Source: an uncultured delta proteobacterium (GTDB lineage: Bacteria; Myxococcota_A; Bradymonadia; REDH01). From it: a stretch of 33,707 bases of DNA. Where the stretch lies: positions 1 to 33,707 of the forward strand of contig CAIQPA010000047.1 of NCBI GenBank assembly GCA_903873545.1, written 5' to 3'. This document shows, piece after piece, positions 2 to 25,822 of the stretch. Numbering within the stretch: the stretch's first letter is position 1; every line of letters begins with the position of its first letter. The notes below the pieces were generated by a model that had not been told where the DNA came from, searched no databases, and saw nothing but the letters and a program-made list of their open reading frames with translations. The position numbers and the translations under genes were made by a program.

Positions 2-538
2 TGGTTCGAGGAGTGGACGATGCTGCTCCGACAGGCCGCCGAACAGCCAGACGACCTCACCGCGCTGGCCGCATCGGGCTGGCGCCTGCTGCTGCGCTCA
101 GTCGGGAGTCTGGTGGGCGTCTCGCTGCTCTGTGGTTGGGGCGTAGGCTGGATGCAGCGGAGGCTCTCGCCGCCTGCCGCGATGCGGTGGGATGGACCGC
201 TACCGACCTCCGATATGGCCGCGCCACGCTGGTTTGCCGGGCTTCTCGCCATGGCAGCGGTGCTATCGTTGGGCGGGGTCACGCTGCTGCTGTCTACGAG
301 CTTCAGCTATGGCGCGGGACTCCGCCTCTCGCGGCTGTCGGGAGCGGTGAGCGCCGCCCTGCTCTGCCTCGCCGTCGTTGACCTGCTTGTCACGGCCGGG
401 CTGAGCACCTGGCGCCACCGGCGGTTCGACAGCGAGCAGGCCATGAGCCACGCTGAGATCGCCGAGGAGCGGCGCGGTGAGGAGGGCACCACCGAAGGTC
501 GCAACGAGGTGGCCAAGCGACGGACCGCCGAACGCTAG
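2..538 (+). CDS. FlhB/SctU-like type III export-gate protein, membrane domain only. The 5' end lies outside the window and there is no C-terminal autocleavage domain.
   Basis: The frame is open from the window edge (WFEEWTMLLRQ...). Several hydrophobic segments are followed by 'AMSHAEIAEERRGEEGTTEGRNEVAKRR'. This resembles the conserved post-TM4 linker of FlhB/YscU ('KMSKQEIK.E.KE.EG.PE.K.R.R'). The ORF stops right after it (TAG 536-538), and no NPTH-type domain follows. Confidence 0.45.
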   Translation, partial: WFEEWTMLLRQAAEQPDDLTALAASGWRLLLRSVGSLVGVSLLCGWGVGWMQRRLSPPAAMRWDGPLPTSDMAAPRWFAGLLAMAAVLSLGGVTLLLSTSFSYGAGLRLSRLSGAVSAALLCLAVVDLLVTAGLSTWRHRRFDSEQAMSHAEIAEERRGEEGTTEGRNEVAKRRTAER

Positions 539-543
539 TGCGC

Positions 544-2085
544 CTACTGACCCTGTGCCCGCCTGATCTCGTCCTCGGTGAGGCCGCGCTGTCCCGAGAT
601 GACGATGCTCTGCGAACGCCTGCTGCCGACGTCGAGCGCGTTGACGTGGACGATACCGTCACGGTCAATCTGGAAGGTGACCTCGATCCGGTTTGCACCG
701 GCCGGCGCGGGCGGGAGCTCCGAAAGCGTAAAGTTGCCCAGCAGCCGGTTCTCGGAGGCCACCCGGCTCTCGCCCTGTAGCACCTCGATGGTGACGAACT
801 CCTGGTCGTCCTCGGTGGTCTGGAAGACCTTCTTGCGCTGCGTCGGGATGGGGCTGTTGCGGGTGATGACGGAAGACATCATCCCGCCCGCCACGCGGAT
901 GCCGAGCGTGAGCGGTGTGATGTCGAGGAGCACCACCTCCGTGACCTCGCCCCCCACAATGCCGCCTTGAATCGCGGCACCCTCGGCGATCGCCTCGTCG
1001 GGGTTGATGCTCTTGTTGGGCCGCTTGCCAAAGATCCGGGCCACCCGCTCCTGCACGCTTGGCATGCGCGACATGCCTCCGACGAGGAGCACATCGTCGA
1101 TCTCTTCGGGCTTGACGCCGGCGTCGGCGAAGGCTGTCTCGCAGGGGAGCTCGAGCCGGTCGATCAACGTGGCGGTAAGGTCGTTCAACTCCACCCGGGT
1201 GAGGGTGTAGGTGAGGTGGCGCGGGCCGGTCTCATCCACCGCCAGGAAGGGGAGATTGATGTTGGTCTCGTTGAGCGAGGAGAGCTCGCACTTGGCCGCT
1301 TCGGAGGCCTCGCGAAGCCGCTGCAACGCCATCTTGTCGCTGGCGATGTTGATGCCGGTGCGCTCCTCGAAGACGGCAACGAGGCGCCGGAGGATGGCGC
1401 GGTCGAAGTCGTCGCCGCCCAAGGCATTATCGCCGCAGGTCGCGATGACCTCATAGACACCGCTACGGAGGCGGAGGATGGAGACGTCGAAGGTGCCGCC
1501 GCCGAGGTCGAAGACAGCGATGCAGGCGTTGGCCTTGGCGTTGGAGCCGTAGGCGAGCGCCGCTGCCGTCGGCTCATTGATGATGCGCTTGACCTCGAGG
1601 CCAGCGATGCGGCCGGCATCCTTGGTGGCCTGGCGCATGGCGTCGTCGAAGTAGGCGGGGACGGTGATGACAGCCTCGGTGACCGGCTCGCCGAAGTAGT
1701 CTTCGGCCGTCGACTTCATTTTCTGAAGGACGAAAGCCGAGATCTCCTGTGGAGAGTAGTCCTGACCGTTGATGGTGATGAGGCAGTCGCCATTCGCCGC
1801 GTCGGTAATCCGGTAGGGTAGCAGCCCCTTGATCTCTTCGACCTCAGCAGAGTCGAACTTGCGACCGATCAGCCGCTTGACGCCGGAGATGGTGCGCTCC
1901 GGGTTGATGATGGCCTGCCGCTTGGCCTGCTGCCCAACGAGCCGCTCCCGGTTCTCCGTGATGGCCACCACCGATGGGGTGGTGCGAGCGCCCTCCGCAT
2001 TCGGCAGTACGATGGGTTCGTTGCCCTCAATCACAGCGACGCACGAATTCGTGGTCCCCAGATCGATCCCGATGATTCTGCCCAT
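544..2085 (-). CDS. Hsp70/DnaK-family chaperone, short form without the C-terminal helical lid
   Basis: ATG at 2085, 513 aa. ATPase motifs are present: 'GIDLGTTNSCVAV', 'DLGGGTFDVSIL', 'EPTAAALAYG', 'LLVGGMSRMP'. A beta-sandwich substrate-binding domain is present ('VLLDITPLTLGI...VTFQIDRDGIVHVNA'). The protein ends 'GLTEDEIRRAQGQ*', about where lid helix A of DnaK begins. Confidence 0.92.
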   Translation of the reverse strand: MGRIIGIDLGTTNSCVAVIEGNEPIVLPNAEGARTTPSVVAITENRERLVGQQAKRQAIINPERTISGVKRLIGRKFDSAEVEEIKGLLPYRITDAANGDCLITINGQDYSPQEISAFVLQKMKSTAEDYFGEPVTEAVITVPAYFDDAMRQATKDAGRIAGLEVKRIINEPTAAALAYGSNAKANACIAVFDLGGGTFDVSILRLRSGVYEVIATCGDNALGGDDFDRAILRRLVAVFEERTGINIASDKMALQRLREASEAAKCELSSLNETNINLPFLAVDETGPRHLTYTLTRVELNDLTATLIDRLELPCETAFADAGVKPEEIDDVLLVGGMSRMPSVQERVARIFGKRPNKSINPDEAIAEGAAIQGGIVGGEVTEVVLLDITPLTLGIRVAGGMMSSVITRNSPIPTQRKKVFQTTEDDQEFVTIEVLQGESRVASENRLLGNFTLSELPPAPAGANRIEVTFQIDRDGIVHVNALDVGSRRSQSIVISGQRGLTEDEIRRAQGQ

Positions 2086-2130
2086 GGATGATACTTACGC
2101 GGAAGGGAGCAAGGAGCTTACGAAATTCAG

Positions 2131-4530
2131 TTAGCCCGGCTTCTTGGGGGTGAGGAGCCGGTCGAGGAAACTGACCGGTCTTTTCGCCTTGTCGAGCTGC
2201 TGACGGAGGTGACGAACCCAGCGGTTGGCCTCCTGGTTGTTTCCATCAATGTCGGTGGCCTGCCGGTAGCAGGCGAGGGCCTCCGTGTAGTTCTCTTCGG
2301 CCCTGCAGAGGTGGCCGAGCAGAACGGCAGCCGAGGCGCGCAAATGGGGCTCGACGAGATCTTCCAGAGCCTTCTCGATTTGCTTCTTCGCGGTCCGGCC
2401 GTCGAGCTTCTTGCGCATCATGAGCAGGTAGGCCTCATGCGCCTCGACAAGCGGGCCAGAGGCTCCCTTCTGGCGGGCCGCAACGAGCATGTCCCAGGCC
2501 TTGTCCACCGCACCCGTCTCAAGCACCTTCTGGGCGTTGCGGAAGAGCTGGTCGCCGCTTGCTCTTCCCGCAGCCGGAGCCGCAGCGCGAGGCGCGGCCT
2601 GCGACGCTGCTGCACTCGGCACGGCCGCCATCGCTACGGTGCGCGCCATAGATGGATGAGAGGAGACCAGCGGCGCCGGACCGGTCCGAACAGGCGACGT
2701 CCCCATCGAGGGCGGCGCTCCGACCCGAGGATGCACACCTGACTGCGTCGGAGAAGAGCCTCCGCTTCTGCGGGCCTGTTCGAGCGCCTCCTGGGCAGCC
2801 GAGGTGCGCGACTCGGCAGGACGAGCCACAAGGGGCCTAGGCGCGGTCACTGGCAGCGCGGAAAACGGGGCCGATGGGTTGGCGCCTTGTGCCGGGAGTC
2901 CATCCGTCTGCCCGCTCTGCGGAGCCGGCCGAGACCGTTCGAGACCGCCGAGAATCCCCTGCAGGTCGCGCAGGCGCACAAACAGCGCATCGGCCTCTGC
3001 GCGCACCGACGCGTGATTCGAACGCCCGAAGCGATCCGGGTGAAACTCACGGACCAACTCGTAGTACCGGCGCTCCACCGACGCGAGCCCGCAGCCGGGC
3101 GCCAGTCCGAAGGCAGCGTAGGGGTCGGACTTGCCGAAGCGTGCCTGCAGCTCCTCGAGCTGGTTCAACGCACCGATCGAGGCGGAGGATTGAGGCCCAA
3201 CCGATTCGATGCCCGCACCCGAGTCATCCGTGATGGCGAACCCACCGACCGCCTTGGCCCGCCGAAGCACCACTGCCACCGGCTGGGATGCAGGTTCGGG
3301 GAGGAAGACGATGCCGCCGAGGCTCCAGCAGAGGTGCGCATGTTGCATGGTCGCATCCACGTTGCCGGCCGCGCGGGCCAGCAGCTGCTCAAGCGTCGCC
3401 GTCCCAGTTTCCGCCTCGAGGAAGCGGGCCACCTCGGGGCTCGACTCGCGCAGACCAACAAGAGAATCGCTCGAATTCGCCACGACAGGATAGCTCGAGA
3501 AATGCCTCACGAGCGACGAGGCGATCTCGTTCAAGCTCGCATGTCGCTGCACGCTTCGCAGGACCACCGAGGCGGCGCTGCCGAAGCCGTAGAAGCGGGG
3601 GCGCGACACCTGCCCGCTCACGAACTCATACTGCCCTGCATTCCAGGTGATCACCGAGAAGAGCCTGGCCTCGTCCGCGGTGCTGATCGGCTGATCAAGC
3701 CGACCCAACTCGCCGTTGCACACCACGAACCGACGCTCCACGCTCCCGTTCCGAAGCACCAACTCTCCCGAGCGACGAGCAAGCCCTATGGCCAGCATGA
3801 GCCGTGCGAAGACAAGCGGCGTTACCTCACCCGAATCGGTGGAGGGGAGCTCAATCTGCACCTGCAGCACGCCTTCGAGCGCCAGCGCCGTGCCGCTGGT
3901 CGGGGTGCTTCGCAGAACGCTCCCTGCGAGGAGCTCATTGGCATGCGAATCCAACTCGGCCAGCCTCTCACGCTCGCCCGTCTCAGGGGCACGCTCGCCG
4001 GCCGCCGAAGGCACCGCGTCGAAGTGGCCGCTCGCGTCGCTGCTGTCGCCGTAGAGATCTTCCTGAAAACCAACATCATCTGGATCGAAGGGCGTTACAT
4101 CGTCGCTGATGCCCGCAGGTAGAGACGACAGAGCTGGAGGCGTGCCGGGCACCTCGCCGCGGACAGCATGATTTCTCACCGCGTCGGCGCAGACCCGCGC
4201 CATCTCATCGGCATCTTCGGAGAGGAGGCAGACCCCATCAAATGCGTCGAGCGGGAAGCCGCAGGCGGAGAGCTCTTCTTGATCCGCAAAGGCGACCACG
4301 CTCGGAATGCCGAGTGCCTGCAACGCCCACGGCGCAGAAGACAGCGTCTCTTCACCGGCAAGTAGGAGGGCACGGAAGCCAAGAAAGGCAATCGACGGCC
4401 CCTCTTCCACCACCGCCTCCATGAAGGAACCCCAGGAATCGGCCGTCCGAACATCTGCCCCCTCCAGGTGCGTCAGCGCCTGGAGGAGGATGTCAGCGCG
4501 AGGATGTGAGAGAAGGCAAAGTATCTTCAC
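2131..4530 (-). CDS. Multidomain J-domain co-chaperone: receiver-like N-terminus, DUF4388-like region, J-domain with HPD, Pro/Ala/Ser linker, C-terminal TPR-like helices
   Basis: GTG at 4530 with GGAGG 6 nt upstream, 799 aa. The J-domain reads 'DPYAAFGL...RRYYELVREFHPDRFG...LFVRLRDL'. 'GELVLRNGSVERRFVVCNGELG' is typical of DUF4388. The N-terminal alpha/beta pattern 'KILCLLSH...SIAFLGF' looks CheY-like but lacks the acidic residues. The stop lies 45 nt upstream of the Hsp70 start. Confidence 0.85.
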   Translation of the reverse strand: MKILCLLSHPRADILLQALTHLEGADVRTADSWGSFMEAVVEEGPSIAFLGFRALLLAGEETLSSAPWALQALGIPSVVAFADQEELSACGFPLDAFDGVCLLSEDADEMARVCADAVRNHAVRGEVPGTPPALSSLPAGISDDVTPFDPDDVGFQEDLYGDSSDASGHFDAVPSAAGERAPETGERERLAELDSHANELLAGSVLRSTPTSGTALALEGVLQVQIELPSTDSGEVTPLVFARLMLAIGLARRSGELVLRNGSVERRFVVCNGELGRLDQPISTADEARLFSVITWNAGQYEFVSGQVSRPRFYGFGSAASVVLRSVQRHASLNEIASSLVRHFSSYPVVANSSDSLVGLRESSPEVARFLEAETGTATLEQLLARAAGNVDATMQHAHLCWSLGGIVFLPEPASQPVAVVLRRAKAVGGFAITDDSGAGIESVGPQSSASIGALNQLEELQARFGKSDPYAAFGLAPGCGLASVERRYYELVREFHPDRFGRSNHASVRAEADALFVRLRDLQGILGGLERSRPAPQSGQTDGLPAQGANPSAPFSALPVTAPRPLVARPAESRTSAAQEALEQARRSGGSSPTQSGVHPRVGAPPSMGTSPVRTGPAPLVSSHPSMARTVAMAAVPSAAASQAAPRAAAPAAGRASGDQLFRNAQKVLETGAVDKAWDMLVAARQKGASGPLVEAHEAYLLMMRKKLDGRTAKKQIEKALEDLVEPHLRASAAVLLGHLCRAEENYTEALACYRQATDIDGNNQEANRWVRHLRQQLDKAKRPVSFLDRLLTPKKPG

Positions 4531-4551
4531 GGGTGACCTCCGCGAAGGTTG

Positions 4552-7500
4552 CTAGCGGTTCGACCGCCACCTGTCGATCTGGTTTTTGTAGCTCCGCTGC
4601 TGGTCGCTCGGGAGGGTCGGAACCTTCGCCAGATAGCGCTGCAGATCGCTCACCGCGCCGGCGATGTTGCCCGCCTGCGCCTTTGCGTAGGCCATCTTTT
4701 CGAGCACCCGCGGGTTCGAATCGGCCAGCCCGCCCGCAACCGCCTGCTCGAGATGCCGAAGGGCCTTCCCATTCTCCGGGACCGGCAGCGCGAGGTAGCA
4801 GAGCGCCCCGTAGTAGTGAGCCTCCGACAGCTTGGGATCGACCGCGAGGGCATGATCGAGGCGGGCAATGGCCCCTACGAAATCGCGCTCTTCGTAGAGC
4901 ACGCGGCCGAGCAGCCACGAGGCCAGCGCATGGTCGGGATGCAGCGTCAGCACGACGCCAAGATCGAGCTTCGCGAGGCTGTTCTGCTTGCGTGCCTGGT
5001 AGATGCTCGCCCGGTCGAAGAAGACCTCCGGGTTCTCGAGCGACCAGGCCGCATCCTCGTCGATCGCCTGCGTGTACTCCGCCATCGCCTGATCGCCGGG
5101 CACCCGCGCCATCGCCTTCCCGAGCCAGTAGTGATACTCGCCCGACGGGTTGCGCTGGGAGACCCGGGTGAGCGCGCTGATGGCCTCGTTGAGGTGTCCA
5201 AGTTCGAGCTCGCAGCGGCCAACATGGTAGAGCGCGCTATCCATGGTCGGGGCCTGGTCGTAGGCCCGCGCGAAGTTCTCCCGGGCCGACTGCCACGACT
5301 TGTTCTCCATGTGGGCGCGACCGAGTTCGAAGAGGTAGGCCGCGTTCTTTGGCTCCGCTTCGATCAGTTTGAGCAGCGTCTCAATCGCTCGGTCTGCCTC
5401 ACCCACGCCGATCATCGCGCTCGCCTGCCGGAGCTTCACCCTCGGGCTCGCAACACCCGCAGCAATCATCTCGTTCAGCTCCTCGAGCGCCTCGCCGAAC
5501 TGCCGCGTCTCGATGAAGTGGCCCGCGAGGTTGATACGGGCATCGGGGTTGCTCCGGTCGATGGTCAGCGCGGCGCGGAAGGCTGCAACCGCCCGGTTCG
5601 TCTCGCCCATCGCAAGGAAGGACTCACCCACATCGTTGGCCAGATCAGAGGAGGTGCTACCTCCGCCGAGCGCCTCGTCGAGCCGCTTGCGGGCAGAGGG
5701 CAGATCGTTGGAGCGGAAGTCGAGCTCCGCGAGCCGAATGTAGGGCTGAAGGAAGTTCGGATCGGCCTGAATCGCCTTCTCATACTGCGTGCGGGCCTTG
5801 TCGAACTCTACCTCCTCCTCCTGAACCCGGCCGAACCAGTAGAGGAAGCGACCATCCCGCGGGTACTGCGCAATGGCAGGCGGAAGCCCCTTCTTAAGAG
5901 CGCTCCAGTCCTTCTTCCCAAACTGCGCCTTGATGAGGCCCAGCGTCGACTCGGGATCACCCGCCGACAGCGCTGCGTTCTGCCTGAAGTGTTCAAGCGC
6001 GCGATCGAACTCGCCGGCGCGGAAGAACTGCTCGCCGAGTTCGCGGGTCGCGCGCCGGTTGCGGGGGTCTGCCTGAAGCGCCGAGAGCAGGTTCTCGATG
6101 GCCAGTGGAGGCTGCATTCGAGCAACAGCAATGCTGGCCGCGAGCAGGTAGGTCTCGCACCGCTCCGACTTCGTCATGGTCGCGGCGAGGTCTTCGATGG
6201 CGCGGGTTACACGCGTCTCAGCATCAACCAGTTTGGCCTCGCGGAGCTGCGCCTCGGCCATGCCAACCACCGAGCGGACATGCTGCGGATTGAGCTCGAG
6301 CGCCTTGCCGAACGAGAGTTGGGCCTTCGCCGGCTCTCTTTCCGACAGCGCGACCCAGCCGAGCCAGTAGTGGGGCGCCACAAACTTCGGGTCGAGCGAT
6401 GCAGCACGTTCGAGCGCCTCGATGGTCCCCTTCGGCAATTCACGAATGATCTCAGCCTCTGCGGGGGCCGCGGGCACGGCCGCAGCCTCGGTTGCAGGTG
6501 CAGGCTTGTCGCCCGGAGCCGCCACGGCCGCGGCAGCGGCAGCCGCACCCTCAGCCTTCGCCGCGGGCTTGCCGCTGCCTTCAGCGGCGCCCGATCCTTC
6601 GGCTGCCGTCTTCGGCTTGCCGGCAGCACCCTTGCCCGCCTTGGGCGCCACGAGCGGCACCGTCAAATCGATGCCTCGGTAGATCTGGAGGGCGCCGATC
6701 GCCTGAAAGAGCGAGGCAAAGGCCCGCAGGTTGGGGTCGGAGACCCCCTCGAGCGTCGCCTTCGCGGTTTCGTCTCTACGCATCGCCAGGTAGGCACCAC
6801 GGGCCAGCCGCGTCAGCGGGGCATCGGCCGACTTGAGCTGCCCGTTCCACTTCTCGAGATCCGTGAACAGATCGCGCTGTTCCGGCTGCTCGGCCAGGAG
6901 CAGCGCCGCGGCGATCATGACCCGTGCACGCTCCTCATCGGAGCCGCCGCGCGACAGCACCTTGCGACCGTTGTCGACAAAGGTCTGGTAGGCCTTCGAC
7001 GAGCCGGATTCGAGCTCCGAGAGCTGCCCGAGGACAATCTTGGGCTGCTCCACCACCCGGTTCTGCGCCGCCTCAATGGCTGCAAGACGGGCTGCCTCTT
7101 CGGCCTGCTTCTGCTGATAGACGGTGAAGCCGTAGTAGCCACCGCCACCCACAACCAGCAGACCCAGCGCAATGGCCAGCCAGGGCTTCTTGTTGCTCGC
7201 CGGACGAGCCACCTTCCGCGCGCTTGTCGACTGACCGGTTCCGGAGCCGAAGTACTCGCCATACTCGTCCGTTCCGGCCGGCACGTCCGTCGCCTCGGCT
7301 CCCTCGACCGGCTCCCCCCACGGGTCGCCGCCTTCAGGGGATGGCTGATAGCTGTCGAAGCCGGAGAGTTCGGAAGGCTGGTCAAACCCGGAGAGGAAGG
7401 GTGCTCCGCCATCGGTGTGGGCGGCGCCCGCATCGGGCGCATCGAAGTCGTCCAGATGGGCGCTGCTCGGCACCGTCGAAGGGCCGAAGACGGTCGCGGC

Positions 7501-8766
7501 GCGGGCGGCCGCAACGGTCCGTGCGCCTCCACCACGGAGCTCCGAAGCAGGGGCAGACTTGCTCTCCGCAGGACCGGCCCAGATGGCGTCCACCGAGGAG
7601 AAGGTATCGAGAATGTTGGCGCCGGCGGCCCGTGCGGAGGCAGGCAACTCGCCGCCGCCCATCGGCTCATCGAGCGGCTCGCCAAAGTCGCCCACGAGCC
7701 CATCGAGCGACTGGATGCTGCCCAGCGCCGCGCCGCGGTTGGCAGGGAACTCGGCAGACCCATCGACCACCGCATCGTCCGGCGCGACCAGCGTCGCTCC
7801 GCCGCGTGGAAGCCCCGCTGTGGGCGTCGGCAGATTCGAAAGTCCGCCAGCAGAGCGGGGGAGTTCCTCCGATGCAGAGCGCGGAAGTTCAGGCCCCGGA
7901 CCGGCGGAAATCGGCAGGTCTTCCACCTCGAGACCCAAGGCCTCCACCACGCTCAAATCAGCCTGGCCCAGATGGGTAAATCCGTGGGGAAGCGGTAGAT
8001 CTACTGTCTGCGGCGGCTGTTGCTCACGCACGGCCTCCATCAGTGCAAGCGGCGCGTCGGAGAAGGCGGTGAAGCCCTTGGGTGACGGGAGCAAGAGCGA
8101 CTCGCTCAGCGGCTCGTCCTCGAGGTCGAGAAGCTCCGGTTCCGCCTTCGGCGCCGGGACCTCCTTCGCCTCATCGGTGAGATCAAGATCCATCAGATCG
8201 GCAAGGATGGAGGCCTCGGCAGGAAGCTCTTCGATGTCGAAGTTCATCGTCGCGCCTCCGCTTGCAGGCGGCGCAATCTCGCCGAGAACCAGCCCCTCGG
8301 GCAGCTCCATGGCCATCGTCGCGGCGCCGGTCGGTGCGGTGAGCGACTCGAGTTCGTCGTCGCTCAATAGGCCGAGCGCATCGTCCGATTCGGAGGGTGA
8401 ATCCATCGGGAGGCCCAATGGCGCGCCGCCGAAGAGGGTCGCGCCCGAGGGGACCTCGGACGACCGGAAGGCAGCACCAAGATCGGGGATCGCAACGATG
8501 GGAATCCAGAAACGACCGTCGCGGGAGACCGACTCGTCGCCCGTGTAGCGGCCGGCACGGATGGCGCCGATCAGCGCGTCGGTGGCCATTGGGCCTTCGA
8601 CCTGACCGTCGACACCACGCACGGAGAACTGCTCCTCCACCGCCTGTGAAAGCCCCTCAAGCGCAGGCATGCCGATCACCGTCGCGCCATGGCCGCTCAC
8701 CGGTTCGTCGGAGCCGGCCTCGGAACGCTCTGCACCATCATTCGGTCCACCGTGCTTGGTCGCCAT
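4552..8766 (-). CDS. Large single-pass membrane protein: N-terminal GYF_2-like domain, long acidic region with ELP/DLP short repeats, one TM helix, and more than 800 aa of TPR repeats
   Basis: I place the start at ATG 8766, with GGAG about 12 nt upstream. The ORF stays open to 9144, but that part overlaps the divergent CPBP gene. GYF-like segment: 'GPMATDALIGAIRAGRYTGDESVSRDGRFWIPIVAIPDL'. TM helix: 'KKPWLAIALGLLVVGGGGYYGFTVY' (nt about 7118-7190). There are many TPR-like units (e.g. 'YLFELGRAHMENKSWQSARENFARAYDQAP', 'EAHYYGALCYLALP'). The stop lies 21 nt upstream of the J-protein start. Confidence 0.85.
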   Translation of the reverse strand: MATKHGGPNDGAERSEAGSDEPVSGHGATVIGMPALEGLSQAVEEQFSVRGVDGQVEGPMATDALIGAIRAGRYTGDESVSRDGRFWIPIVAIPDLGAAFRSSEVPSGATLFGGAPLGLPMDSPSESDDALGLLSDDELESLTAPTGAATMAMELPEGLVLGEIAPPASGGATMNFDIEELPAEASILADLMDLDLTDEAKEVPAPKAEPELLDLEDEPLSESLLLPSPKGFTAFSDAPLALMEAVREQQPPQTVDLPLPHGFTHLGQADLSVVEALGLEVEDLPISAGPGPELPRSASEELPRSAGGLSNLPTPTAGLPRGGATLVAPDDAVVDGSAEFPANRGAALGSIQSLDGLVGDFGEPLDEPMGGGELPASARAAGANILDTFSSVDAIWAGPAESKSAPASELRGGGARTVAAARAATVFGPSTVPSSAHLDDFDAPDAGAAHTDGGAPFLSGFDQPSELSGFDSYQPSPEGGDPWGEPVEGAEATDVPAGTDEYGEYFGSGTGQSTSARKVARPASNKKPWLAIALGLLVVGGGGYYGFTVYQQKQAEEAARLAAIEAAQNRVVEQPKIVLGQLSELESGSSKAYQTFVDNGRKVLSRGGSDEERARVMIAAALLLAEQPEQRDLFTDLEKWNGQLKSADAPLTRLARGAYLAMRRDETAKATLEGVSDPNLRAFASLFQAIGALQIYRGIDLTVPLVAPKAGKGAAGKPKTAAEGSGAAEGSGKPAAKAEGAAAAAAAVAAPGDKPAPATEAAAVPAAPAEAEIIRELPKGTIEALERAASLDPKFVAPHYWLGWVALSEREPAKAQLSFGKALELNPQHVRSVVGMAEAQLREAKLVDAETRVTRAIEDLAATMTKSERCETYLLAASIAVARMQPPLAIENLLSALQADPRNRRATRELGEQFFRAGEFDRALEHFRQNAALSAGDPESTLGLIKAQFGKKDWSALKKGLPPAIAQYPRDGRFLYWFGRVQEEEVEFDKARTQYEKAIQADPNFLQPYIRLAELDFRSNDLPSARKRLDEALGGGSTSSDLANDVGESFLAMGETNRAVAAFRAALTIDRSNPDARINLAGHFIETRQFGEALEELNEMIAAGVASPRVKLRQASAMIGVGEADRAIETLLKLIEAEPKNAAYLFELGRAHMENKSWQSARENFARAYDQAPTMDSALYHVGRCELELGHLNEAISALTRVSQRNPSGEYHYWLGKAMARVPGDQAMAEYTQAIDEDAAWSLENPEVFFDRASIYQARKQNSLAKLDLGVVLTLHPDHALASWLLGRVLYEERDFVGAIARLDHALAVDPKLSEAHYYGALCYLALPVPENGKALRHLEQAVAGGLADSNPRVLEKMAYAKAQAGNIAGAVSDLQRYLAKVPTLPSDQQRSYKNQIDRWRSNR

Positions 8767-8904
8767 CGTCGATTCCGTCTCCACTAGGTCGCGCCATCCG
8801 CCGGGGAACGCATCACCAGAAGGGCTCGCCTTCCAGGACGTCTGCGCGAGCAGACTACCCTTGGTGCTTGTCACCAACGGCGGGGCGAGCATACAACGAA
8901 ACCC

Positions 8905-9987
8905 ATGGAGTTGAACACAAAATCGCCCGTCGCCAGCCACCTTGGCAGCGCCGTGACAGCGGAGCATCCCGCACCGCCCGGGGGCCGCGAGCTGTTCGGG
9001 GCGACCGCAGGCCTGCTCCTGCTCCTCGTTGCCCTCGATCTCCTCGGCCGGGCCGTTGGATGGGTCGGCGGAAATCTCCTCGCCTTCGTCGCAGCAACCT
9101 TTCTCCTGCTCCCCGATCTCATCTGGCCCGCCGGAAGGAGCCACCCGAGCCAGGCCGACCGGCCGCGCCGCGAGCAGCTCCGAGGGATTGCGATGGGACT
9201 CGGGCTAACCGCGATCGTCTTTGCCGGCTTCGTCCCCGGCTACCACCTCTGGAACACCCACTTCGCGGGACGGAGCCCCGCGCCAGCACTCAGCGCGCTA
9301 CGACAGCCGGCAAACGAGCTGAGCCTCCGCCCTGCCTCCGCCCTGCCGACCGACCTCACCGTCGAGCGCGACGGGCGCGACCTCCTGCTGCACTGGCAGC
9401 CCGCCGCGGCCGCGACGCTCTCCCTGCAGAGCGATGGACAGCTCACGCGGGTTTCGGGCGCGCTCATGCCCATGCCAGCCGCCTCGGGAGCCCTTCACTT
9501 CGCGGTCCGGGCGGGGGAGCCGCTCGCACTTCGGGTGCGGGTGGAGGAGGCGCACACGGTGTCGGGTAGCGTCACCCCTGCGACCGACCTCTGGCTCGGG
9601 AGCGACGCCCTGCCCTCCGCGACCAGCTTCACCATCCCCTACAATCTGCGCTGGCTCCCCTGGATGCTTCTCATGCAGATCGTGCTGGTTGCCATCCCGG
9701 AAGAGACCTTCTTCCGCGGCTACCTGCTGCGAAGGTTTGCACGGCGCTGGCCAGGCGCCAGCTCCACCCGCTTTCTGCACATCAGCGCAGCAAACCTGGC
9801 GAGCTCCGCCATCTTTGCGCTCGCCCACTTCGCCATCGGCTTTCACCCGGCGCGCCTTGCGGTCTTCTTCCCATCATTGCTCTTCGGACGACTCGCTGAA
9901 CGGACGGGGGGCATCGCCGCCTCTGTCACCCTTCATGTGATGTCGAACATGATGATGCAGTTCGTCTCCACACAGTATCTGCCGTGA
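8905..9987 (+). CDS. CPBP-family (CAAX/Abi-type) intramembrane glutamic metalloprotease with a soluble insert of about 150 aa
   Basis: ATG at 8905, 360 aa. All three CPBP motifs are present: 'IPEETFFRGYLLRRF' (EExxxR), 'IFALAHFAIGFH' (FxxxH), 'TLHVMSNMM' (HxxxN). Three N-terminal TM helices are followed by a non-hydrophobic insert before the catalytic core. Confidence 0.85.
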   Translation: MELNTKSPVASHLGSAVTAEHPAPPGGRELFGATAGLLLLLVALDLLGRAVGWVGGNLLAFVAATFLLLPDLIWPAGRSHPSQADRPRREQLRGIAMGLGLTAIVFAGFVPGYHLWNTHFAGRSPAPALSALRQPANELSLRPASALPTDLTVERDGRDLLLHWQPAAAATLSLQSDGQLTRVSGALMPMPAASGALHFAVRAGEPLALRVRVEEAHTVSGSVTPATDLWLGSDALPSATSFTIPYNLRWLPWMLLMQIVLVAIPEETFFRGYLLRRFARRWPGASSTRFLHISAANLASSAIFALAHFAIGFHPARLAVFFPSLLFGRLAERTGGIAASVTLHVMSNMMMQFVSTQYLP

Positions 9988-10583
9988 GCGCCCGGAGCGC
10001 AGGCGTCATGCTGTTGACGGCGTTCGCTTTGGCGGGCTGCGGCCGCGACACCTCAACGCAGCCGGCCGCAGGCAGCCCACAGGCGCGCCTGCTTCCGCTC
10101 CCGAGGCCGGACGACACCTTCGCCGTCGAGCGCATCGCGACGGTTGACGGCCGCTCCCATACCTCCGCCGCGGTGGCGACGGTGAGCTGGCGCTGGTCGG
10201 CTGATGCGCCCGATGGCATCGAACTGCTCCGCGTTGAAGGGCTCCACACCGAACTCTGGTGGCGCTCCGATTTGGGGCTGGCGCTCTGGGATGGCGATGC
10301 ATGGCAGACCATCGAAGGCAGCGGGCCGGCCTCGGAGCCGGTAAGCAACGAGCGCGGTCAGCTCCGCGCGACCATCACGACGGAGCAGGCAACCGGTTCG
10401 GGCGAACGGGCCGACGGCTGCCTCCGGCTCCGGATCGCCAGCCGGGAGCGGGCCGATGAGGCCACCTCCGCGCTCCTCCGCGTGGAGGAGCGGCAGCTCT
10501 GTCCCGACCGGGGCGAGGTCAGCATCGAGCGCACCGGCCGCGGCCCGCTCGGCGAGCTCAACGAGCGCTGGGTCCGACGCTAG
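9984..10583 (+). CDS. Hypothetical lipoprotein, translationally coupled to the CPBP protease
   Basis: GTG at 9984 overlaps the upstream stop (GTGA). Signal peptide plus lipobox 'MLLTAFALAGC'. I recognised no other motif. Confidence 0.7.
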   Translation: MSARSAGVMLLTAFALAGCGRDTSTQPAAGSPQARLLPLPRPDDTFAVERIATVDGRSHTSAAVATVSWRWSADAPDGIELLRVEGLHTELWWRSDLGLALWDGDAWQTIEGSGPASEPVSNERGQLRATITTEQATGSGERADGCLRLRIASRERADEATSALLRVEERQLCPDRGEVSIERTGRGPLGELNERWVRR

Positions 10584-11650
10584 GGTCGGATGCGCCGCCA
10601 CGCGGCCGGCGGGAGGGTCTCGCTGGTCGGCGGCGACCCGACCGACAGCACACACTGCGCGCGCCGGTTGGCAGCCTCATCGGCGTTGTCGTCGGTCTTC
10701 ACCACCTGCCCGTTCTCGCCGAATCCGTAGACATAGACAGGCACCTTCAGCCCCCGCTTCATGAAGTAACGTGCGAGCGACTCGGCGCGCGCATCGGAGA
10801 GCTTGCGGTTGTCTTCGCCGGGCCCGACCGTATCGGTGAATCCACCGATGTAGAGCTCCACGGCAACCCACTTCGAGACCCGCGTGGCGGTCTCGGCGAT
10901 CTGGTCGTAGAACGCGGAAACAACTGGTAAATCTGCCTCCGGGATCACCGCGCTTCCTGTCGCGAACTTGATACCGGCAACCGTGTAGTCGACGCGCCAC
11001 GGGATGTACTGGCGCCCGATCCAGGCCCCCTCCTCCGAGAAGACCTTAAGGTCGATGGTCAGCACCTGGCCGGCCGCCTGCGCCCAGCTCACGGGAAGCC
11101 TCGTCCCCGCGGGCTCGCCCGCGAAGGCCACCGCCGTGTCAGCGAGGATCTCGCCCTTGTCACCGCGCACCACCAGCTCGACATGGCCTGCAGGCGCGGT
11201 GAGTTCCAGCACAAGTCTCGCGCCCTCCACATCGTAGCTGCCGGCGACCAGCGTGAAGTCGAGCGGCTTCACAACGGGCACCTCGAACTCCATGGCGAGC
11301 GAGCCCGGTTCACCGGCAAACTTGCCTGACACGAGGCAGCGGTAGGACTCCGTCCGGTCGGAGGCGGGGAACTTGAGCGAGTGGGCCTGGTCGGTGCCGA
11401 GCCTTGCCCTCTTGTCGCGGTAGACCTTCTTATCGCGGAGCCGGGTCACCTCGATGGTCAGGTCGGTAATCTCGTCGTCGGCCAGGACGCGGACCTCGAC
11501 CCCCTGATCCACGGTGCGCCAGTTCATCTCGATGGGGAGCCCCGCGGCGTAGGCAGAGGCTGCGCCAAGCGCTGCGTAGATGGGGATCGCTCCAGCGAGC
11601 AGCGCGCAGGCAAGCAGTGTGCGGTAGATGAGCCGAGCCAAGTGAGACAT
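10580..11650 (-). CDS. OmpA-family (OmpA_C-like, peptidoglycan-binding) protein with N-terminal signal peptide and beta-rich middle domains
   Basis: ATG at 11650 with GGAG 6 nt upstream; a GTG at 11662 is an alternative start. Signal peptide 'LLACALLAGAIPIYAALGAASAYA'. C-terminal 'GGFTDTVGPGEDNRKLSDARAESLARYF...EAANRRAQCVL' matches the OmpA C-terminal domain pattern. Confidence 0.85.
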   Translation of the reverse strand: MSHLARLIYRTLLACALLAGAIPIYAALGAASAYAAGLPIEMNWRTVDQGVEVRVLADDEITDLTIEVTRLRDKKVYRDKRARLGTDQAHSLKFPASDRTESYRCLVSGKFAGEPGSLAMEFEVPVVKPLDFTLVAGSYDVEGARLVLELTAPAGHVELVVRGDKGEILADTAVAFAGEPAGTRLPVSWAQAAGQVLTIDLKVFSEEGAWIGRQYIPWRVDYTVAGIKFATGSAVIPEADLPVVSAFYDQIAETATRVSKWVAVELYIGGFTDTVGPGEDNRKLSDARAESLARYFMKRGLKVPVYVYGFGENGQVVKTDDNADEAANRRAQCVLSVGSPPTSETLPPAAWRRIRP

Positions 11651-11668
11651 GCGAAACTCCACTGCAGA

Positions 11669-13836: not shown

Positions 13837-14591
13837 GCTGCACGCCCCGCGAACTCGAAGCCTACCTTGCCACGCTCCTCGGCGTGGGCGCCTTTGCCGA
13901 CTACTGCCCCAACGGCCTGCAGGTCGAAGGTGGACGGCAGATCCAGCGCCTCGCCGTAGGCGTGACCGCAAACCTCGCCCTCCTCGAGGCCGCGCGCGAG
14001 GCAGAGGCCGACGCCATCCTGGTGCACCACGGCCTGTTCTGGAACAAGGACCCCCGCGTACTCACCGGCTGGCGGGCTGCGCGGGTGCGGAGCCTCATGC
14101 AGGCAGACCAGTCACTGTTTGCCTACCACCTGCCGCTCGACGCCCACGCCGACTTCGGCAACAACGCAGGCATGCTCCGAGCGATGGCGCTGGAGCCGAC
14201 CGAGCCACTCACGGTTGACGGCGTGGCGCTCGGCTTCATCAGCAGGCTCTCCGCCCCCATGATGGCGCTGAACATCGTCGAGCGGATTGAGGCTGTCACG
14301 AGCCGGGAGCCGCTCGTCTTCGGCGACCCGGACCAGTTGGTTGGCACCATCGGGATGCTCTCCGGCGGAGGCGCGAGCTACTTCGAGGCAGCGCGCCGCG
14401 CGGGCGTCGACCTCTTCATCACGGGCGAGGCGGCCGAGTCGAGCCAGGCGATGAGCGAAGAGCTGGGTGGGATGTTCGTCGCCGCGGGTCACCATGCGAC
14501 GGAGCGGTTCGGGGTGGAGCTGCTGGGCAGGCACCTGGCGCAGACCTTTGGCGTCGAACTGCTGGTCATCGACATCGACAACCCGGTCTGA
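13833..14591 (+). CDS. NIF3-family dinuclear metal-centre protein (YbgI-like)
   Basis: The protein aligns by eye along its full length with E. coli YbgI: 'DYCPNGLQVEG', 'GVTANLALLEAA', 'DAILVHHGLFW', 'YHLPLDAH...GNNA', 'AAGHHATERFG'. Confidence 0.9.
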   Translation: MSCTPRELEAYLATLLGVGAFADYCPNGLQVEGGRQIQRLAVGVTANLALLEAAREAEADAILVHHGLFWNKDPRVLTGWRAARVRSLMQADQSLFAYHLPLDAHADFGNNAGMLRAMALEPTEPLTVDGVALGFISRLSAPMMALNIVERIEAVTSREPLVFGDPDQLVGTIGMLSGGGASYFEAARRAGVDLFITGEAAESSQAMSEELGGMFVAAGHHATERFGVELLGRHLAQTFGVELLVIDIDNPV

Positions 14592-14715
14592 GGCTCGAGC
14601 GGTCGCAGGAAGGATCGCCCGCGAAACAAAACGGGCGCGGGGGTCGTTGCCCTTGTCGGCTTGCTTCAATAGGGTAGACCGACGCCCCGATCTTGGGGGT
14701 AGAAACGAGATTGCC

Positions 14716-25247: not shown

Positions 25248-25310
25248 GCTAACCGCCCTCCGTCAAAAGATCTGAACCATTCAAAGAAAACAGACAGCCA
25301 GAGAGGGCGA

Positions 25311-25643: not shown

Positions 25644-25822
25644 CGTCAACCTTCCTCACAGCTCGGCAACCCGCCGAGCGCATCTCCAACACCCCATGGT
25701 GCCGGAACATTCCTGATTTGTCTCCCAGCGTTGCCGCTGTTAGCAGACCGACCGCGCTGCCGGCATGGCTTGTAAAGACCAGCTAGGCGTTCAGAGTGGC
25801 CTGCTCTCTAGTGGTTTTAACC

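What the first reader, a model, noticed from the sequence alone, without database searches (positions are those of the whole stretch)
544..8766. Three-gene operon: membrane GYF/TPR scaffold, atypical J-protein and lidless Hsp70, a candidate dedicated membrane-tethered chaperone machine
Three co-directional minus-strand genes are separated by only 21 nt and 45 nt. They encode a 1404-aa single-pass TPR/GYF protein, a 799-aa J-domain protein with an intact HPD motif, and a 513-aa Hsp70 with no helical lid. The J-protein has no DnaJ-type G/F or zinc-finger region, and no grpE is present. Specialised Hsp70/J pairs such as HscA-HscB and HscC-DjlC have narrow client ranges. By analogy, this trio looks like a client-specific system whose targeting comes from the TPR, GYF and DUF4388 modules. 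I know of no characterised system with this exact composition. It also abuts a type-III export-gate gene.
Basis: partly seen in the sequence, partly recalled or inferred. Interest (0 to 1): 0.7.

Follow-up and report, generated by a model that had tools for sequence, protein, structure and literature searches.

The report
Lidless Hsp70 module with membrane partner
Three neighbouring genes encode an Hsp70 chaperone that naturally lacks its lid, its own unusual helper protein and a membrane-spanning partner. The trio is conserved across a group of predatory bacteria, has not been described, and often sits beside the enzyme that sorts proteins to the cell surface.

Summary
Three minus-strand genes (4552-8766, 2131-4530, 544-2085) are separated by 21 and 45 nt.

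They encode three proteins:
- A bitopic protein with a GYF domain, a disordered tail, one TM helix and a TPR region.
- A class-C J-protein with a pseudo-receiver, a PATAN/DUF4388 domain, a J-domain with invariant HPD, and three TPRs.
- A 513-aa DnaK-type Hsp70 that ends at the first turn of the lid.

The order TPR, J, Hsp70 recurs in 13 of 15 independently sampled distant loci, with J-protein identity down to about 20%. One of these is the cultured Lujinxingia litoralis. Of the 120 best Hsp70 hits, 113 are at most 530 aa, so lid loss defines a clade.

- The large TPR region is predicted periplasmic. Only the GYF domain and an acidic tail carrying 12-19 [E/D/N]LPx[S/P][A/K] motifs face the chaperone.
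- The type-III gate neighbour is convergent and not conserved.
- The divergent neighbour is myxosortase MrtP, and it is linked in about half the lineages.

Best reading: a dedicated Hsp70/JDP pair acting on the cytoplasmic tail of this membrane protein. I found no description of it. I rate it a new variant of a known kind. Function is untested.

The parts
544..2085 (-). Lidless DnaK-type Hsp70, 513 aa: NBD, conserved linker and SBD-beta, ending at the first turn of lid helix A
   Evidence: PF00012 scores E 4.7e-210. It aligns to DnaK 1-514. All module orthologues are 513-525 aa and end at the same point. Of the best 120 database hits, 113 are at most 530 aa.
2131..4530 (-). Class-C J-domain co-chaperone, 799 aa (REC-like, PATAN, J-domain, Pro-rich linker, 3-TPR)
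   Evidence: The AF2 model has mean pLDDT 77.8, with four domains above 90.
4156..4530 (-). N-terminal pseudo-receiver domain (aa 1-125)
   Evidence: AF2 gives pLDDT of about 95 with an alternating beta/alpha fold. Foldseek matches the VicR, MicA, GlnR and PhoP receiver domains with TMt 0.63-0.74. The sequence lacks the acidic pair after beta1 ('LLSH') and the phospho-acceptor Asp after beta3 ('AFLG'), as read directly from the sequence.
3256..3891 (-). PATAN (DUF4388/PatA_N) domain plus helical extension (aa 214-425)
   Evidence: PF14332 scores E 3.7e-5 and 24.2 bits against a cutoff of 25. It matches 22 of 50 family members, best E 4.5e-11. PatA_N is precomputed on the orthologues in L026, L028, L029 and L033. 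AF2 is confident over this region.
2932..3186 (-). J-domain (aa 449-533); the HPD motif at aa 497-499 is nt 3034-3042
   Evidence: H497 and P498 are invariant and D499 is at least 90% conserved. The family profile matches PDB J-domains over their full length. AF2 predicts the expected helices.
2575..2931 (-). Disordered Pro/Ala/Ser-rich linker (aa 534-652, 17% Pro) with one conserved short helix (aa 578-588)
   Evidence: consensus 'PxRxxVxxxLxRLR'.
2152..2574 (-). C-terminal three-TPR domain (aa 653-793)
   Evidence: TPR Pfam hits cover aa 733-768. AF2 gives pLDDT of about 97. The top Foldseek hits are 3-TPR co-chaperone domains (RPAP3, SGT, Hop, CHIP) and designed CTPR3.
4552..8766 (-). Bitopic membrane protein, 1404 aa: cytoplasmic GYF domain and acidic disordered tail, one TM helix, periplasmic TPR region
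8479..8634 (-). GYF_2 domain (aa 45-96)
   Evidence: The window protein scores E 1.4e-3. Orthologues pass the Pfam cutoff (L008 29.0 bits, L028 26.6 bits), and 7 of 8 orthologues match. L023 and L025 carry an extra N-terminal Zn_ribbon_4.
7183..8469 (-). Acidic disordered cytoplasmic tail (aa 100-528, net charge -55) with 12 LP motifs of the type [E/D/N]LPx[S/P][A/K]G
   Evidence: The whole cytoplasmic part (aa 1-528) has 12 LP dipeptides against 5.3 +/- 2.0 in 2000 shuffles. Orthologues have 12-19 against 3.4-5.4 expected. The larger periplasmic part has 1-5 (net charge).
7117..7182 (-). Single transmembrane helix (aa 529-550), predicted N-in/C-out
   Evidence: It is the only hydrophobic segment. 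The N-flank has 5 K/R and the C-flank has 2. The same bias holds in 13 of 14 orthologues.
4555..7116 (-). Predicted periplasmic region (aa 551-1404) with an Ala/Pro-rich linker and about 600 aa of TPR repeats
   Evidence: TPR_19 scores E 1.2e-39, with many other TPR families. NCBIfam hits to PrsT, PilW, GltE and Tgl are all sub-threshold. This region is 25-43% identical across orthologues.
8767..8904 (.). 138-bp divergent intergenic region between the TPR gene and mrtP; presumed promoters
   Evidence: Read from the sequence. No sigma-70-type consensus was found.
8905..9987 (+). Myxosortase MrtP (CPBP/Rce1-like intramembrane protease), divergent neighbour and possible functional partner
   Evidence: NF040674 scores 291.2 bits against a cutoff of 250, E 1.4e-86, over the full length. 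PF02517 also matches. The gene is adjacent in L001-L011, L023/24 and L031, and absent near L025, L026, L028, L029, L032 and L033.

Best explanation
This is a dedicated three-component Hsp70 system of the Bradymonadia and related Myxococcota.

**Components.**
- The 513-aa protein is a DnaK-derived Hsp70. It keeps the ATPase domain, the interdomain linker and the peptide-binding beta-sandwich, but it has lost the helical lid.
- The 799-aa protein is its cognate class-C J-domain co-chaperone. It supplies the HPD trigger for ATP hydrolysis. Its pseudo-receiver, PATAN and 3-TPR domains supply targeting.
- The 1404-aa protein is an inner-membrane protein. Its GYF domain and roughly 430-residue acidic disordered tail face the cytoplasm, and its large TPR region faces the periplasm.

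**Proposed mechanism (inferred).**
1. The J-protein docks on the membrane protein. One plausible contact is GYF binding to the J-protein's proline-rich linker, as GltJ-GYF binds the AglZ proline-rich sequence.
2. The J-protein then loads the lidless Hsp70 onto the repeated [E/D/N]LPx[S/P][A/K] motifs of the tail.
3. Several Hsp70 molecules therefore bind and release a membrane-proximal disordered chain in an ATP-driven cycle.
4. This either remodels the tail, coupling the cytoplasm to the periplasmic TPR scaffold, or concentrates the chaperone at an envelope machine.

**Insulation from the housekeeping system.** The helix II / subdomain IIa contact is re-patterned on both partners. This suggests the pair is insulated from housekeeping DnaK/DnaJ.

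**Shown versus inferred.** Gene order, domain content, clade-wide lid loss, the motif array and the co-conservation are shown. Topology is predicted. All protein-protein contacts and the physiological role are inferred.
For: **Co-conservation.**
- TPR, J, Hsp70 occur in the same order in L007-L011, with J-protein identity of about 30-43%.
- The same order holds in L023/24, L025 and L026, where J-protein identity is 20-26% by tblastn.
- It also holds in Lujinxingia litoralis (L028) and in L029, L031, L032 and L033.
- In total the trio is present in 13 of 15 independent distant loci. Hsp70 is absent beside the J-homologue in L027, and no J-protein lies beside the Hsp70 in L030.

**Lid loss is ancestral to the clade.** All module Hsp70s are 513-525 aa and end after 'GL(T/S)EEEIRRA'. 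Of the best 120 hits, 113 are at most 530 aa and rank above full-length DnaKs.

**The functional core is retained.** R167, N170, T173 and the VLLLD-type linker are conserved, and identity to E. coli DnaK is 56%.

**Clade-specific changes at functional sites.**
- The subdomain IIa hairpin changes from 'E..GD' to '(Q/R)..R'.
- SBD-beta changes from 'LGIET(M/L)' to 'LGIRVx' and from 'FSTA' to 'FTTT', which alters the arch residues M404 and A429.

**J-domain.** HPD is conserved across the family, and the positions of DnaJ K26/R27 are replaced by (Y/F)-E. According to PMC7289447, helix II contacts the subdomain IIa beta-sheet electrostatically and this interface co-evolves.

**Motif array.** Each cytoplasmic tail carries 12-19 LP motifs against about 4-5 expected, with E/D/N at position -1 in 132 of 165 cases.

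**Topology.**

**GYF precedent.** Bacterial N-terminal GYF domains, with or without a zinc ribbon, are commonly followed by a membrane module. GltJ-GYF binds the proline-rich sequence of AglZ, which is itself a receiver-plus-PRS protein (PMC11135422). The J-protein here has a receiver-like domain and a linker that is 17% Pro.

**Precedent for membrane-directed specialised pairs.** HscC works with the tail-anchored DjlB and DjlC (PMC8215388).
Against: - There is no experimental or transcript evidence. Operon status rests on spacing and conserved order only. The promoter and terminator scans were uninformative.
- No interaction could be modelled, because no multimer prediction was available.
- The LP motifs contain only one hydrophobic residue, so they are weak DnaK-type sites. 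They could equally be ligands of the GYF, PATAN or 3-TPR domains.
- Some lidless Hsp70s stand alone (L030). Some PATAN-J proteins have no adjacent Hsp70 (L027 and L034).
- The window protein's DnaJ, PATAN and GYF Pfam scores are all below the curated cutoffs. They are supported only at family level.
- Loci were sampled by homology to one member of the trio, so the 13 of 15 figure is conditional adjacency and not a phylogenetic profile.
Confidence: 0.55

Rival explanations
1. The module is an accessory of MYXO-CTERM surface-protein sorting. It works with the divergently encoded myxosortase MrtP. The periplasmic TPR region would hold or hand over substrates. The cytosolic lidless Hsp70/J pair would engage the Arg-rich cytoplasmic ends or the cleaved TM remnants, or would power the TPR protein.
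For: - The divergent neighbour passes the MrtP equivalog cutoff (291 against 250 bits).
- The mrtP and TPR-gene pair is conserved in L001-L011, L023/24 and L031, where the J-protein is only about 26-43% identical by tblastn.
[quoted passage not shown] A repeatedly conserved neighbour is therefore notable.
- The MYXO-CTERM tail, a TM helix followed by an Arg-rich cluster, resembles a DnaK-type binding site. This comparison is from my own knowledge and PMC11980579.
Against: - mrtP is not within 8-10 kb of the trio in six other lineages, including cultured L. litoralis.
- The M. xanthus MrtX work reports cleavage in E. coli with MrtX alone (abstract), so no chaperone is strictly required for cleavage.
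- No MYXO-CTERM protein is encoded in the window.
Confidence: 0.12
2. The module is a regulatory Hsp70 for surface motility or polysaccharide output, analogous to M. xanthus StkA/SglK or cyanobacterial DnaK1/DnaJ3. The PATAN domain would target the J-protein to a type IV pilus motor ATPase. The Hsp70 would hold a regulator in an alternative state.
For: - PATAN response regulators bind the PilB1 motor (Jakob et al. 2020, cited in PMC9239167).
- StkA is a short (540-aa) DnaK homologue that regulates exopolysaccharide downstream of type IV pili, and it has two same-strand upstream ORFs (PMC4319316).
- REC-PATAN-TPR proteins occur next to PATAN-J proteins elsewhere (L034).
Against: - No pil, dif or eps genes lie near the trio in any sampled locus.
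- The stkB (SCP2) and stkC equivalents are absent downstream.
- No 540-aa protein appears among the best 120 Hsp70 hits.
- The constant partner is the membrane GYF/TPR protein, not a motor.
Confidence: 0.2
3. This is an ordinary extra DnaK/DnaJ paralogue pair for general proteostasis that happens to lie next to a TPR membrane-protein gene.
For: - The Hsp70 passes the NCBIfam DnaK equivalog NF001413 (767.6 against a cutoff of 648).
- Databases name its relatives 'molecular chaperone DnaK'.
- Myxobacteria carry many Hsp70 paralogues (PMC8265645).
Against: - It fails TIGR02350 (744.4 against 822.55).
- The whole clade lacks the lid.
- The J-protein has none of the client-binding domains of class A/B JDPs.
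- Gene order with the TPR gene is kept at 20-30% J-protein identity.
- No grpE is linked.
Confidence: 0.05
4. The short Hsp70 is a truncated pseudogene or an assembly artefact.
For: None beyond its length.
Against: - The same end point occurs in more than 100 independent clusters from NCBI, JGI, ENA and Logan, including isolate genomes.
- Coding-type GC3 is 0.87.
- Close relatives are 96-99% identical.
Confidence: 0.01

Closest known systems
HscC with DjlB/DjlC (E. coli)
   Same: It is a specialised, non-heat-shock Hsp70 encoded next to its own class-C J-proteins. Those J-proteins are membrane-localised, and a role with cytosolic domains of membrane proteins has been proposed (PMC8215388).
   Different: - HscC is a separate deep Hsp70 branch, about 28% identical to DnaK, with an L1,2 insertion and an NBD deletion. 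It keeps a shortened lid.
- The protein here is DnaK-derived (56% identical), aligns to DnaK 1-514 with only a short hairpin gap, and has no lid at all.
- The J-protein here is soluble. The membrane link is a separate GYF/TPR protein.
HscA-HscB with IscU
   Same: It is a dedicated Hsp70/JDP pair with one client that carries a short Leu-Pro motif (LPPVK). Here [E/D]LPxPK-type motifs recur in the partner's tail.
   Different: - The HscA NCBIfam models are not met (526 against 620 and 708).
- HscA has a lid.
- The client motif here is a 12-19-copy array in a disordered membrane-protein tail.
- No isc genes are nearby.
- The resemblance to LPPVK is drawn from memory and was not tested.
M. xanthus StkA locus (MXAN_3471-3476)
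   Same: It is a short (540-aa) DnaK homologue in Myxococcota with two same-orientation upstream ORFs. It is not heat-inducible and has a regulatory phenotype (PMC4319316).
   Different: - stkB (SCP2) and stkC lie downstream there. Here the downstream gene is a convergent flhB-like gene.
- No 540-aa protein appears in the top 120 Hsp70 hits.
- The content of MXAN_3471 and MXAN_3472 could not be retrieved, so orthology is untested.
Cyanobacterial DnaK1/DnaJ3/GrpE
   Same: It is a specialised DnaK/JDP pair recruited to an envelope machine (type IV pilus motors) to control polysaccharide secretion (PMC9239167).
   Different: DnaK1 lies between grpE and dnaJ11. No membrane GYF/TPR partner or PATAN-J fusion is reported for it.
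GltJ (M. xanthus gliding machinery)
   Same: Its N-terminal cytoplasmic zinc ribbon and GYF domain are followed by a linker and a TM segment. The GYF domain binds the proline-rich sequence of a receiver-domain protein, AglZ (PMC11135422).
   Different: GltJ belongs to the Agl-Glt motor and is regulated by MglA/MglB. No Hsp70 or JDP is associated with it. Its periplasmic part was not compared here and is not assumed to be alike.
Mitochondrial import motor (mtHsp70 with Tim44 and Pam18)
   Same: An Hsp70 is held at a membrane by a J-protein and a tether, and it acts on an extended chain next to the membrane by entropic pulling. This comparison is from my own knowledge.
   Different: mtHsp70 has a lid and pulls a translocating chain. 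Here the chain is a resident tail. The analogy is mechanistic only.

Membership tests
Hsp70 / DnaK type | Actin-like NBD with catalytic residues and the J-responsive R167/N170/T173 | tested here: met
   PF00012 scores E 4.7e-210. 'VKRIINEPTAAA' is identical to DnaK.
Hsp70 / DnaK type | Hydrophobic interdomain linker (VLLLD) and SBD-beta sandwich | tested here: met
   The linker reads 'EVVLLDITP'. SBD-beta aligns to DnaK 394-507. The arch residues are changed (M404 to A, A429 to T).
Hsp70 / DnaK type | Alpha-helical lid (SBD-alpha, helices A-E) and C-terminal tail | tested here: not met
   The protein ends at the DnaK residue 514 equivalent plus 4 aa. The same holds in all module orthologues.
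Hsp70 / DnaK type | Curated DnaK equivalog scores | tested here: inconclusive
   NF001413 scores 767.6 against a cutoff of 648, which is met. TIGR02350 scores 744.4 against a cutoff of 822.55, which is not met.
HscA | NCBIfam HscA model cutoffs | tested here: not met
   NF003520 scores 526.5 against 620. TIGR01991 scores 524.5 against 708.55.
HscC | Deletion of DnaK 76-101 and an L1,2 insertion in SBD-beta (PMC8215388) | tested here: not met
   The protein aligns to DnaK 1-514 without those indels.
J-domain protein | HPD tripeptide between helices II and III | tested here: met
   HPD lies at residues 497-499. H and P are invariant and D is at least 90% conserved in 50 relatives.
J-domain protein | Four-helix J fold or profile match | tested here: met
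   The family profile hits 6rzy (E 6.5e-5), 2y4t and 5nro_B over the full J-domain. AF2 predicts helices at 449-467, 482-496 and 507-533. The window protein alone is below the Pfam cutoff (22 against 27.8).
Class A/B JDP (DnaJ/CbpA type) | G/F region, zinc-finger, C-terminal client-binding domains | tested here: not met
   There is no DnaJ_C or DnaJ_CXXCXGXG hit. The linker is rich in Pro, Ala and Ser.
PATAN / PatA_N (PF14332) | Pfam gathering score | tested here: inconclusive
   The window protein scores 24.2 bits against a cutoff of 25. Of 50 relatives, 22 match, best E 4.5e-11. PatA_N is precomputed on four orthologues.
Response-regulator receiver | Phospho-acceptor Asp and acidic pocket | tested here: not met
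   The REC fold is supported by AF2 and Foldseek. The sequence has 'LLSH' and 'AFLG' at the acidic-pair and acceptor positions, so it is a pseudo-receiver.
Bacterial GYF_2 (PF14237) | Pfam gathering score | tested here: met
   The window protein scores 18.8, below the cutoff of 25.8. The aligned orthologues L008 (29.0) and L028 (26.6) pass, and 7 of 8 match.
Myxosortase MrtP (neighbour 8905..9987) | NF040674 equivalog cutoff and Mrt core domain | tested here: met
   NF040674 scores 291.2 against a cutoff of 250. NF040914 scores 128.8 against a cutoff of 100.
M. xanthus stk locus | stkB (SCP2) and stkC immediately downstream of the Hsp70 | tested here: not met
   The downstream gene is a convergent flhB-like gene. 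Relatives have varied downstream genes.
M. xanthus stk locus | Sequence orthology to StkA and MXAN_3471/3472 | not testable with these tools
   M. xanthus sequences could not be fetched.
Type III export gate (left neighbour 2..538) | FlhB/SctU family profile | tested here: inconclusive
   The window fragment has no Pfam or NCBIfam hit. Its orthologue in L001 has a faint Bac_export_2 hit and follows fliP, fliQ and a 225-aa ORF.

The most novel reading that the evidence does not exclude
The trio would be an ATP-driven transmembrane coupling device.

- A J-protein docked on the GYF domain loads many lidless Hsp70s onto the LP-motif array of the cytoplasmic tail.
- The resulting entropic pulling or expansion is transmitted through the single TM helix to the periplasmic TPR scaffold.

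If true, this would be a fourth functional type of prokaryotic Hsp70 system and the first chaperone motor tied to a C-terminal sorting pathway.
Probability: 0.12. Interest if true: 0.85.

Novelty: new variant of a known kind. Interest (0 to 1): 0.6.

Why it matters
A recent review recognises three prokaryotic Hsp70 types: DnaK, HscA and HscC (PMC8215388).

This module would add a naturally lidless branch derived from DnaK. It comes with its own PATAN-containing J-protein and a fixed membrane partner. It therefore offers a natural experiment on three questions:
- what the lid is for;
- how J-domain/Hsp70 pairs become insulated from one another;
- how an Hsp70 can be dedicated to a disordered tail that carries a repeated short motif.

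Databases currently label the Hsp70 'molecular chaperone DnaK', and its partners carry no informative name ('hypothetical protein' where a name is given at all). The system is therefore invisible in annotation.

The recurrent pairing with myxosortase MrtP gives a testable lead into the still incomplete MYXO-CTERM surface-sorting pathway of Myxococcota.

Cultured hosts such as Lujinxingia litoralis carry the module, so experiments are feasible.

Tried and rejected
**Searches that led nowhere.**
- The word-indexed homologue search with the J-protein found only 18 relatives at 70% identity or more. The same search with the 50-sequence profile found 21 hits, almost all of them the same close relatives. 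It added only three new proteins, and the search was largely wasted. The exhaustive representative search was what revealed the wider family.
- The search for related loci with the 50-sequence alignment failed because no stretch was conserved enough. The 16-sequence alignment worked.
- Literature searches found no description: J-domain with DUF4388 gave 0 papers; lidless bacterial Hsp70 and atypical Hsp70/TPR gave nothing relevant; the large JDP survey PMC10410713 mentions neither DUF4388, PATAN nor GYF.
- Tests of orthology to the M. xanthus stk locus or to MXAN_2747 failed. MXAN_3471 and MXAN_3472 are mentioned only once and without annotation. The supplements of PMC8265645 give no lengths or sequences.
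- Ten distant J-family clusters were checked for named or isolate sources. All came from metagenomes and none had a name.
- Promoter and terminator scans gave counts no higher than shuffled sequence and found nothing at the junctions.
- tRNA, Rfam and tandem-repeat scans of the window found nothing relevant.
- A scan for MYXO-CTERM-like tails in the window found none.

**Ideas rejected.**
- A link to the type-III export gate, because the neighbour is not conserved beyond close relatives.
- A truncation artefact.
- Membership of HscA or HscC.
- The large TPR region acting as a cytosolic scaffold.

**Not attempted.** Multimer modelling was not attempted, because the tool folds single window-derived chains only.

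Full report
**1. Observation.**

The window has about 67% G+C. Three minus-strand ORFs with coding-type GC3 lie at:
- 544..2085 (513 aa);
- 2131..4530 (799 aa, GTG start);
- 4552..8766 (1404 aa; the open frame runs up to 9144).

The gaps are exactly 45 nt and 21 nt. The J-protein GTG is preceded by GGAGG.

ATG 8766 is the likely start of the large gene. It is preceded by GGAGA and lies 138 bp from the divergent gene that starts at 8905. Orthologue N-termini align from this Met.

No promoter or terminator consensus stands out, and none lies at the junctions.

**2. The Hsp70.**

PF00012 scores E 4.7e-210. The protein aligns to E. coli DnaK residues 1-514 at 56% identity. It ends at 'GLTEDEIRRAQGQ', the first turn of lid helix A.

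It passes one DnaK equivalog model (NF001413, 767.6 against 648). It fails another (TIGR02350, 744.4 against 822.55) and fails the HscA models.

The J-responsive residues R167, N170 and T173 and the hydrophobic linker are retained.

In the word-indexed search, 113 of the 120 best hits are at most 530 aa, at 60-73% identity. They rank above the first full-length DnaKs, which are 612-647 aa and about 61% identical. All module orthologues end at the same point.

The clade shares derived residues:
- the subdomain IIa hairpin reads '(Q/R)L R' instead of 'EL GD';
- SBD-beta reads 'LGIRVx' instead of 'LGIET(M/L)';
- SBD-beta also reads 'FTTT' instead of 'FSTA', so both arch residues that clamp the peptide in DnaK are changed.

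Lid loss is therefore an ancestral, fixed trait of a distinct DnaK-derived lineage. Named members come from Lujinxingia litoralis, Bradymonadaceae TMQ3 and MAGs labelled Bradymonadia, Myxococcales or Myxococcota.

**3. The J-protein.**

In the window protein, the DnaJ, DUF4388/PatA_N and TPR hits are all just below the Pfam cutoffs.

An exhaustive HMMER search found 221 representative clusters at E 1e-3 or better, and 96 at 1e-10 or better. They typically cover residues about 220-795.

In a 50-member alignment, H497 and P498 are invariant and D499 is at least 90% conserved. The J-domain consensus is 'PYxxFGLxxGCGxxxVxxRFYxLVRxxHPDRYA'. DnaJ matches 37 of 50 members and PatA_N matches 22 of 50. 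The family profile hits solved J-domains end to end.

The AlphaFold model has mean pLDDT 77.8 and shows four confident domains joined by disordered linkers:
- residues 1-125, a receiver fold. Foldseek matches VicR, MicA and PhoP with TMt 0.64-0.74. It lacks the acidic pocket and the acceptor Asp;
- residues 214-425, PATAN plus helices;
- residues 449-533, the J-domain;
- residues 653-793, a 3-TPR domain. Its best structural matches are co-chaperone TPR domains and designed CTPR3.

There is no G/F, zinc-finger or DnaJ C-terminal domain, so this is a class-C JDP.

Helix II carries (Y/F)-E where DnaJ has K26-R27. Published work shows that helix II docks electrostatically on the subdomain IIa sheet, and that this interface co-evolves to insulate Hsp70 networks (PMC7289447). 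The complementary changes on both partners here fit an orthogonal pair. This is an inference and was not modelled.

**4. The membrane protein.**

It has a conserved N-terminal GYF_2 domain. The window copy is below the cutoff, but the L008 and L028 orthologues pass and 7 of 8 orthologues match. Some lineages add an N-terminal Zn_ribbon_4.

A roughly 430-residue acidic disordered region follows. Then comes one hydrophobic helix (aa 529-550), and then about 850 residues with many TPRs.

The N-flank of the helix is richer in K/R than the C-flank in 13 of 14 orthologues. Zinc-ribbon and GYF domains are cytoplasmic modules. The TPR region is therefore predicted periplasmic.

The cytoplasmic tail carries 12-19 copies per orthologue of [E/D/N]-L-P-[R/A/Q/K]-[S/P]-[A/K]-G. 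Composition predicts 3.4-5.4 copies. The larger periplasmic part has only 1-5.

**5. Co-conservation.**

A genome scan and contig look-ups gave the following.
- Close relatives L001-L006 are fully syntenic.
- L007-L011 keep MrtP, TPR, J and Hsp70, with J-protein identity of about 30-43%.
- L023/24 keeps all four genes, with J-protein identity of 26% by tblastn.
- L025 and L026 keep the trio without MrtP.
- Starting from lidless Hsp70s, L. litoralis (L028) and L029, L031, L032 and L033 all have the trio.
- L030 has the Hsp70 alone. One distant J-homologue, in L027, has no Hsp70 beside it.

That makes 13 of 15 independent distant loci. A PATAN-J protein also exists without an adjacent Hsp70, next to a REC-PATAN-TPR protein (L034). 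This shows the J-protein is a J-domain-bearing member of a wider REC-PATAN-TPR family.

**6. Neighbours.**

The left neighbour (2..538, +) is the 3' end of a short flhB-like gene. In relatives it closes a fliP-fliQ-(225 aa)-flhB' cluster. It is convergent with the Hsp70 gene and is present only in the 82-86% relatives.

The right, divergent neighbour (8905..9987) is myxosortase MrtP: NF040674 scores 291.2 bits against a cutoff of 250. MrtP is the Bradymonadales form of the CPBP protease that cleaves MYXO-CTERM sorting signals (10.1101/2023.06.07.544157; PMC11980579).

The pairing of mrtP with the trio holds in roughly half the sampled lineages.

**7. Interpretation.**

The best-supported reading is a dedicated Hsp70/JDP pair whose fixed partner is the cytoplasmic tail of a bitopic GYF/TPR protein.

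I propose that the GYF domain recruits the J-protein through a proline-rich linker. The precedent is GltJ-GYF binding the AglZ proline-rich sequence (PMC11135422). I also propose that the LP-motif array is the multivalent binding site for the lidless Hsp70. A lidless Hsp70 would be expected to bind and release extended segments quickly. These steps are inferred.

The rivals are an MrtP-linked sorting accessory, a PATAN-directed motility or polysaccharide regulator of the StkA or DnaK1/DnaJ3 kind, and a generic paralogue. They are ranked in the rival list.

**8. Novelty.**

Specialised Hsp70/JDP pairs are known: HscA/HscB, HscC/DjlB/DjlC, DnaK1/DnaJ3 and StkA. The kind is therefore not new.

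The composition is new. It combines a clade-wide lidless DnaK derivative, a REC-PATAN-J-TPR co-chaperone and a GYF-tail-TM-TPR partner, often paired with a myxosortase. I found no description of it.

I rate it a new variant of a known kind, with interest 0.6.

Noticed in passing
window 2..538 (+); L001 13987..16242: This is the 3' end of a short (226-aa) flhB-like gene that lacks any family hit. In close relatives it ends a compact four-gene cluster of fliP, fliQ, a 225-aa ORF (likely fliR) and flhB'. That cluster has overlapping gene ends and no flhA, ATPase or other flagellar or injectisome genes nearby. It looks like an orphan type-III export-gate core.
   Followed up: partly
window 8905..9987 (+): The divergent neighbour is myxosortase MrtP (NF040674, 291 bits against a cutoff of 250), the MYXO-CTERM sorting protease of the Bradymonadales. 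It is divergently paired with the trio in about half the sampled lineages, although it has been described as a housekeeping gene not linked to its substrates.
   Followed up: partly
window 9984..10583 (+) and 10580..11662 (-): A 199-aa putative lipoprotein ('LTAFALAGCG') with no family hit lies next to a 360-aa OmpA-domain protein. Both are conserved beside mrtP in L001-L007 (35-92% identity).
   Followed up: no
L025, L026, L029, L032, L033 (downstream of the Hsp70): A TonB-dependent receptor, a roughly 400-aa ORF with no family hit and a Cob_adeno_trans gene recur downstream of the trio in most lineages that lack mrtP linkage (L026, L032, L033). L025 and L029 show only the receptor within the stretch fetched. 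A glycogen phosphorylase (L026, L029, L033) or a DAGK_cat gene (L025, L029) often lies in between.
   Followed up: no
window 24726..25775: Local G+C dips to 0.59. The region holds a 173-aa ORF whose N-terminus ('GDMVVYPAQGVAKVEG') looks like a CarD/CdnL-type regulator, plus small ORFs of uncertain reality. There are no tRNA or Rfam hits.
   Followed up: no
window 14467..17748 (+): A 1093-aa S41 (Ctp-type) peptidase carries PDZ, DUF11/CARDB and SH3 domains. It is followed by a pair of M16 peptidases (17738..20343). Together they form an envelope-protease cluster 6 kb from the module.
   Followed up: no
J-protein aa 478-481 (window about 3088..3099): A 'GCG' motif lies in the loop between J-domain helices I and II. 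Its Cys (C480) is conserved in at least 90% of the family. This is unusual for J-domains.
   Followed up: no
L009, L010, L031 Hsp70 linker: Three orthologues have a partly polar interdomain linker ('SLQD', 'ELQD', 'TLQD') instead of VLLLD. This hints at altered NBD-SBD coupling in one sub-lineage.
   Followed up: no
L034 8001..14955: A 1474-aa PatA_N plus DnaJ protein is followed by a REC-PatA_N-TPR protein, with no Hsp70 nearby. PATAN-J fusions therefore exist outside the trio.
   Followed up: no
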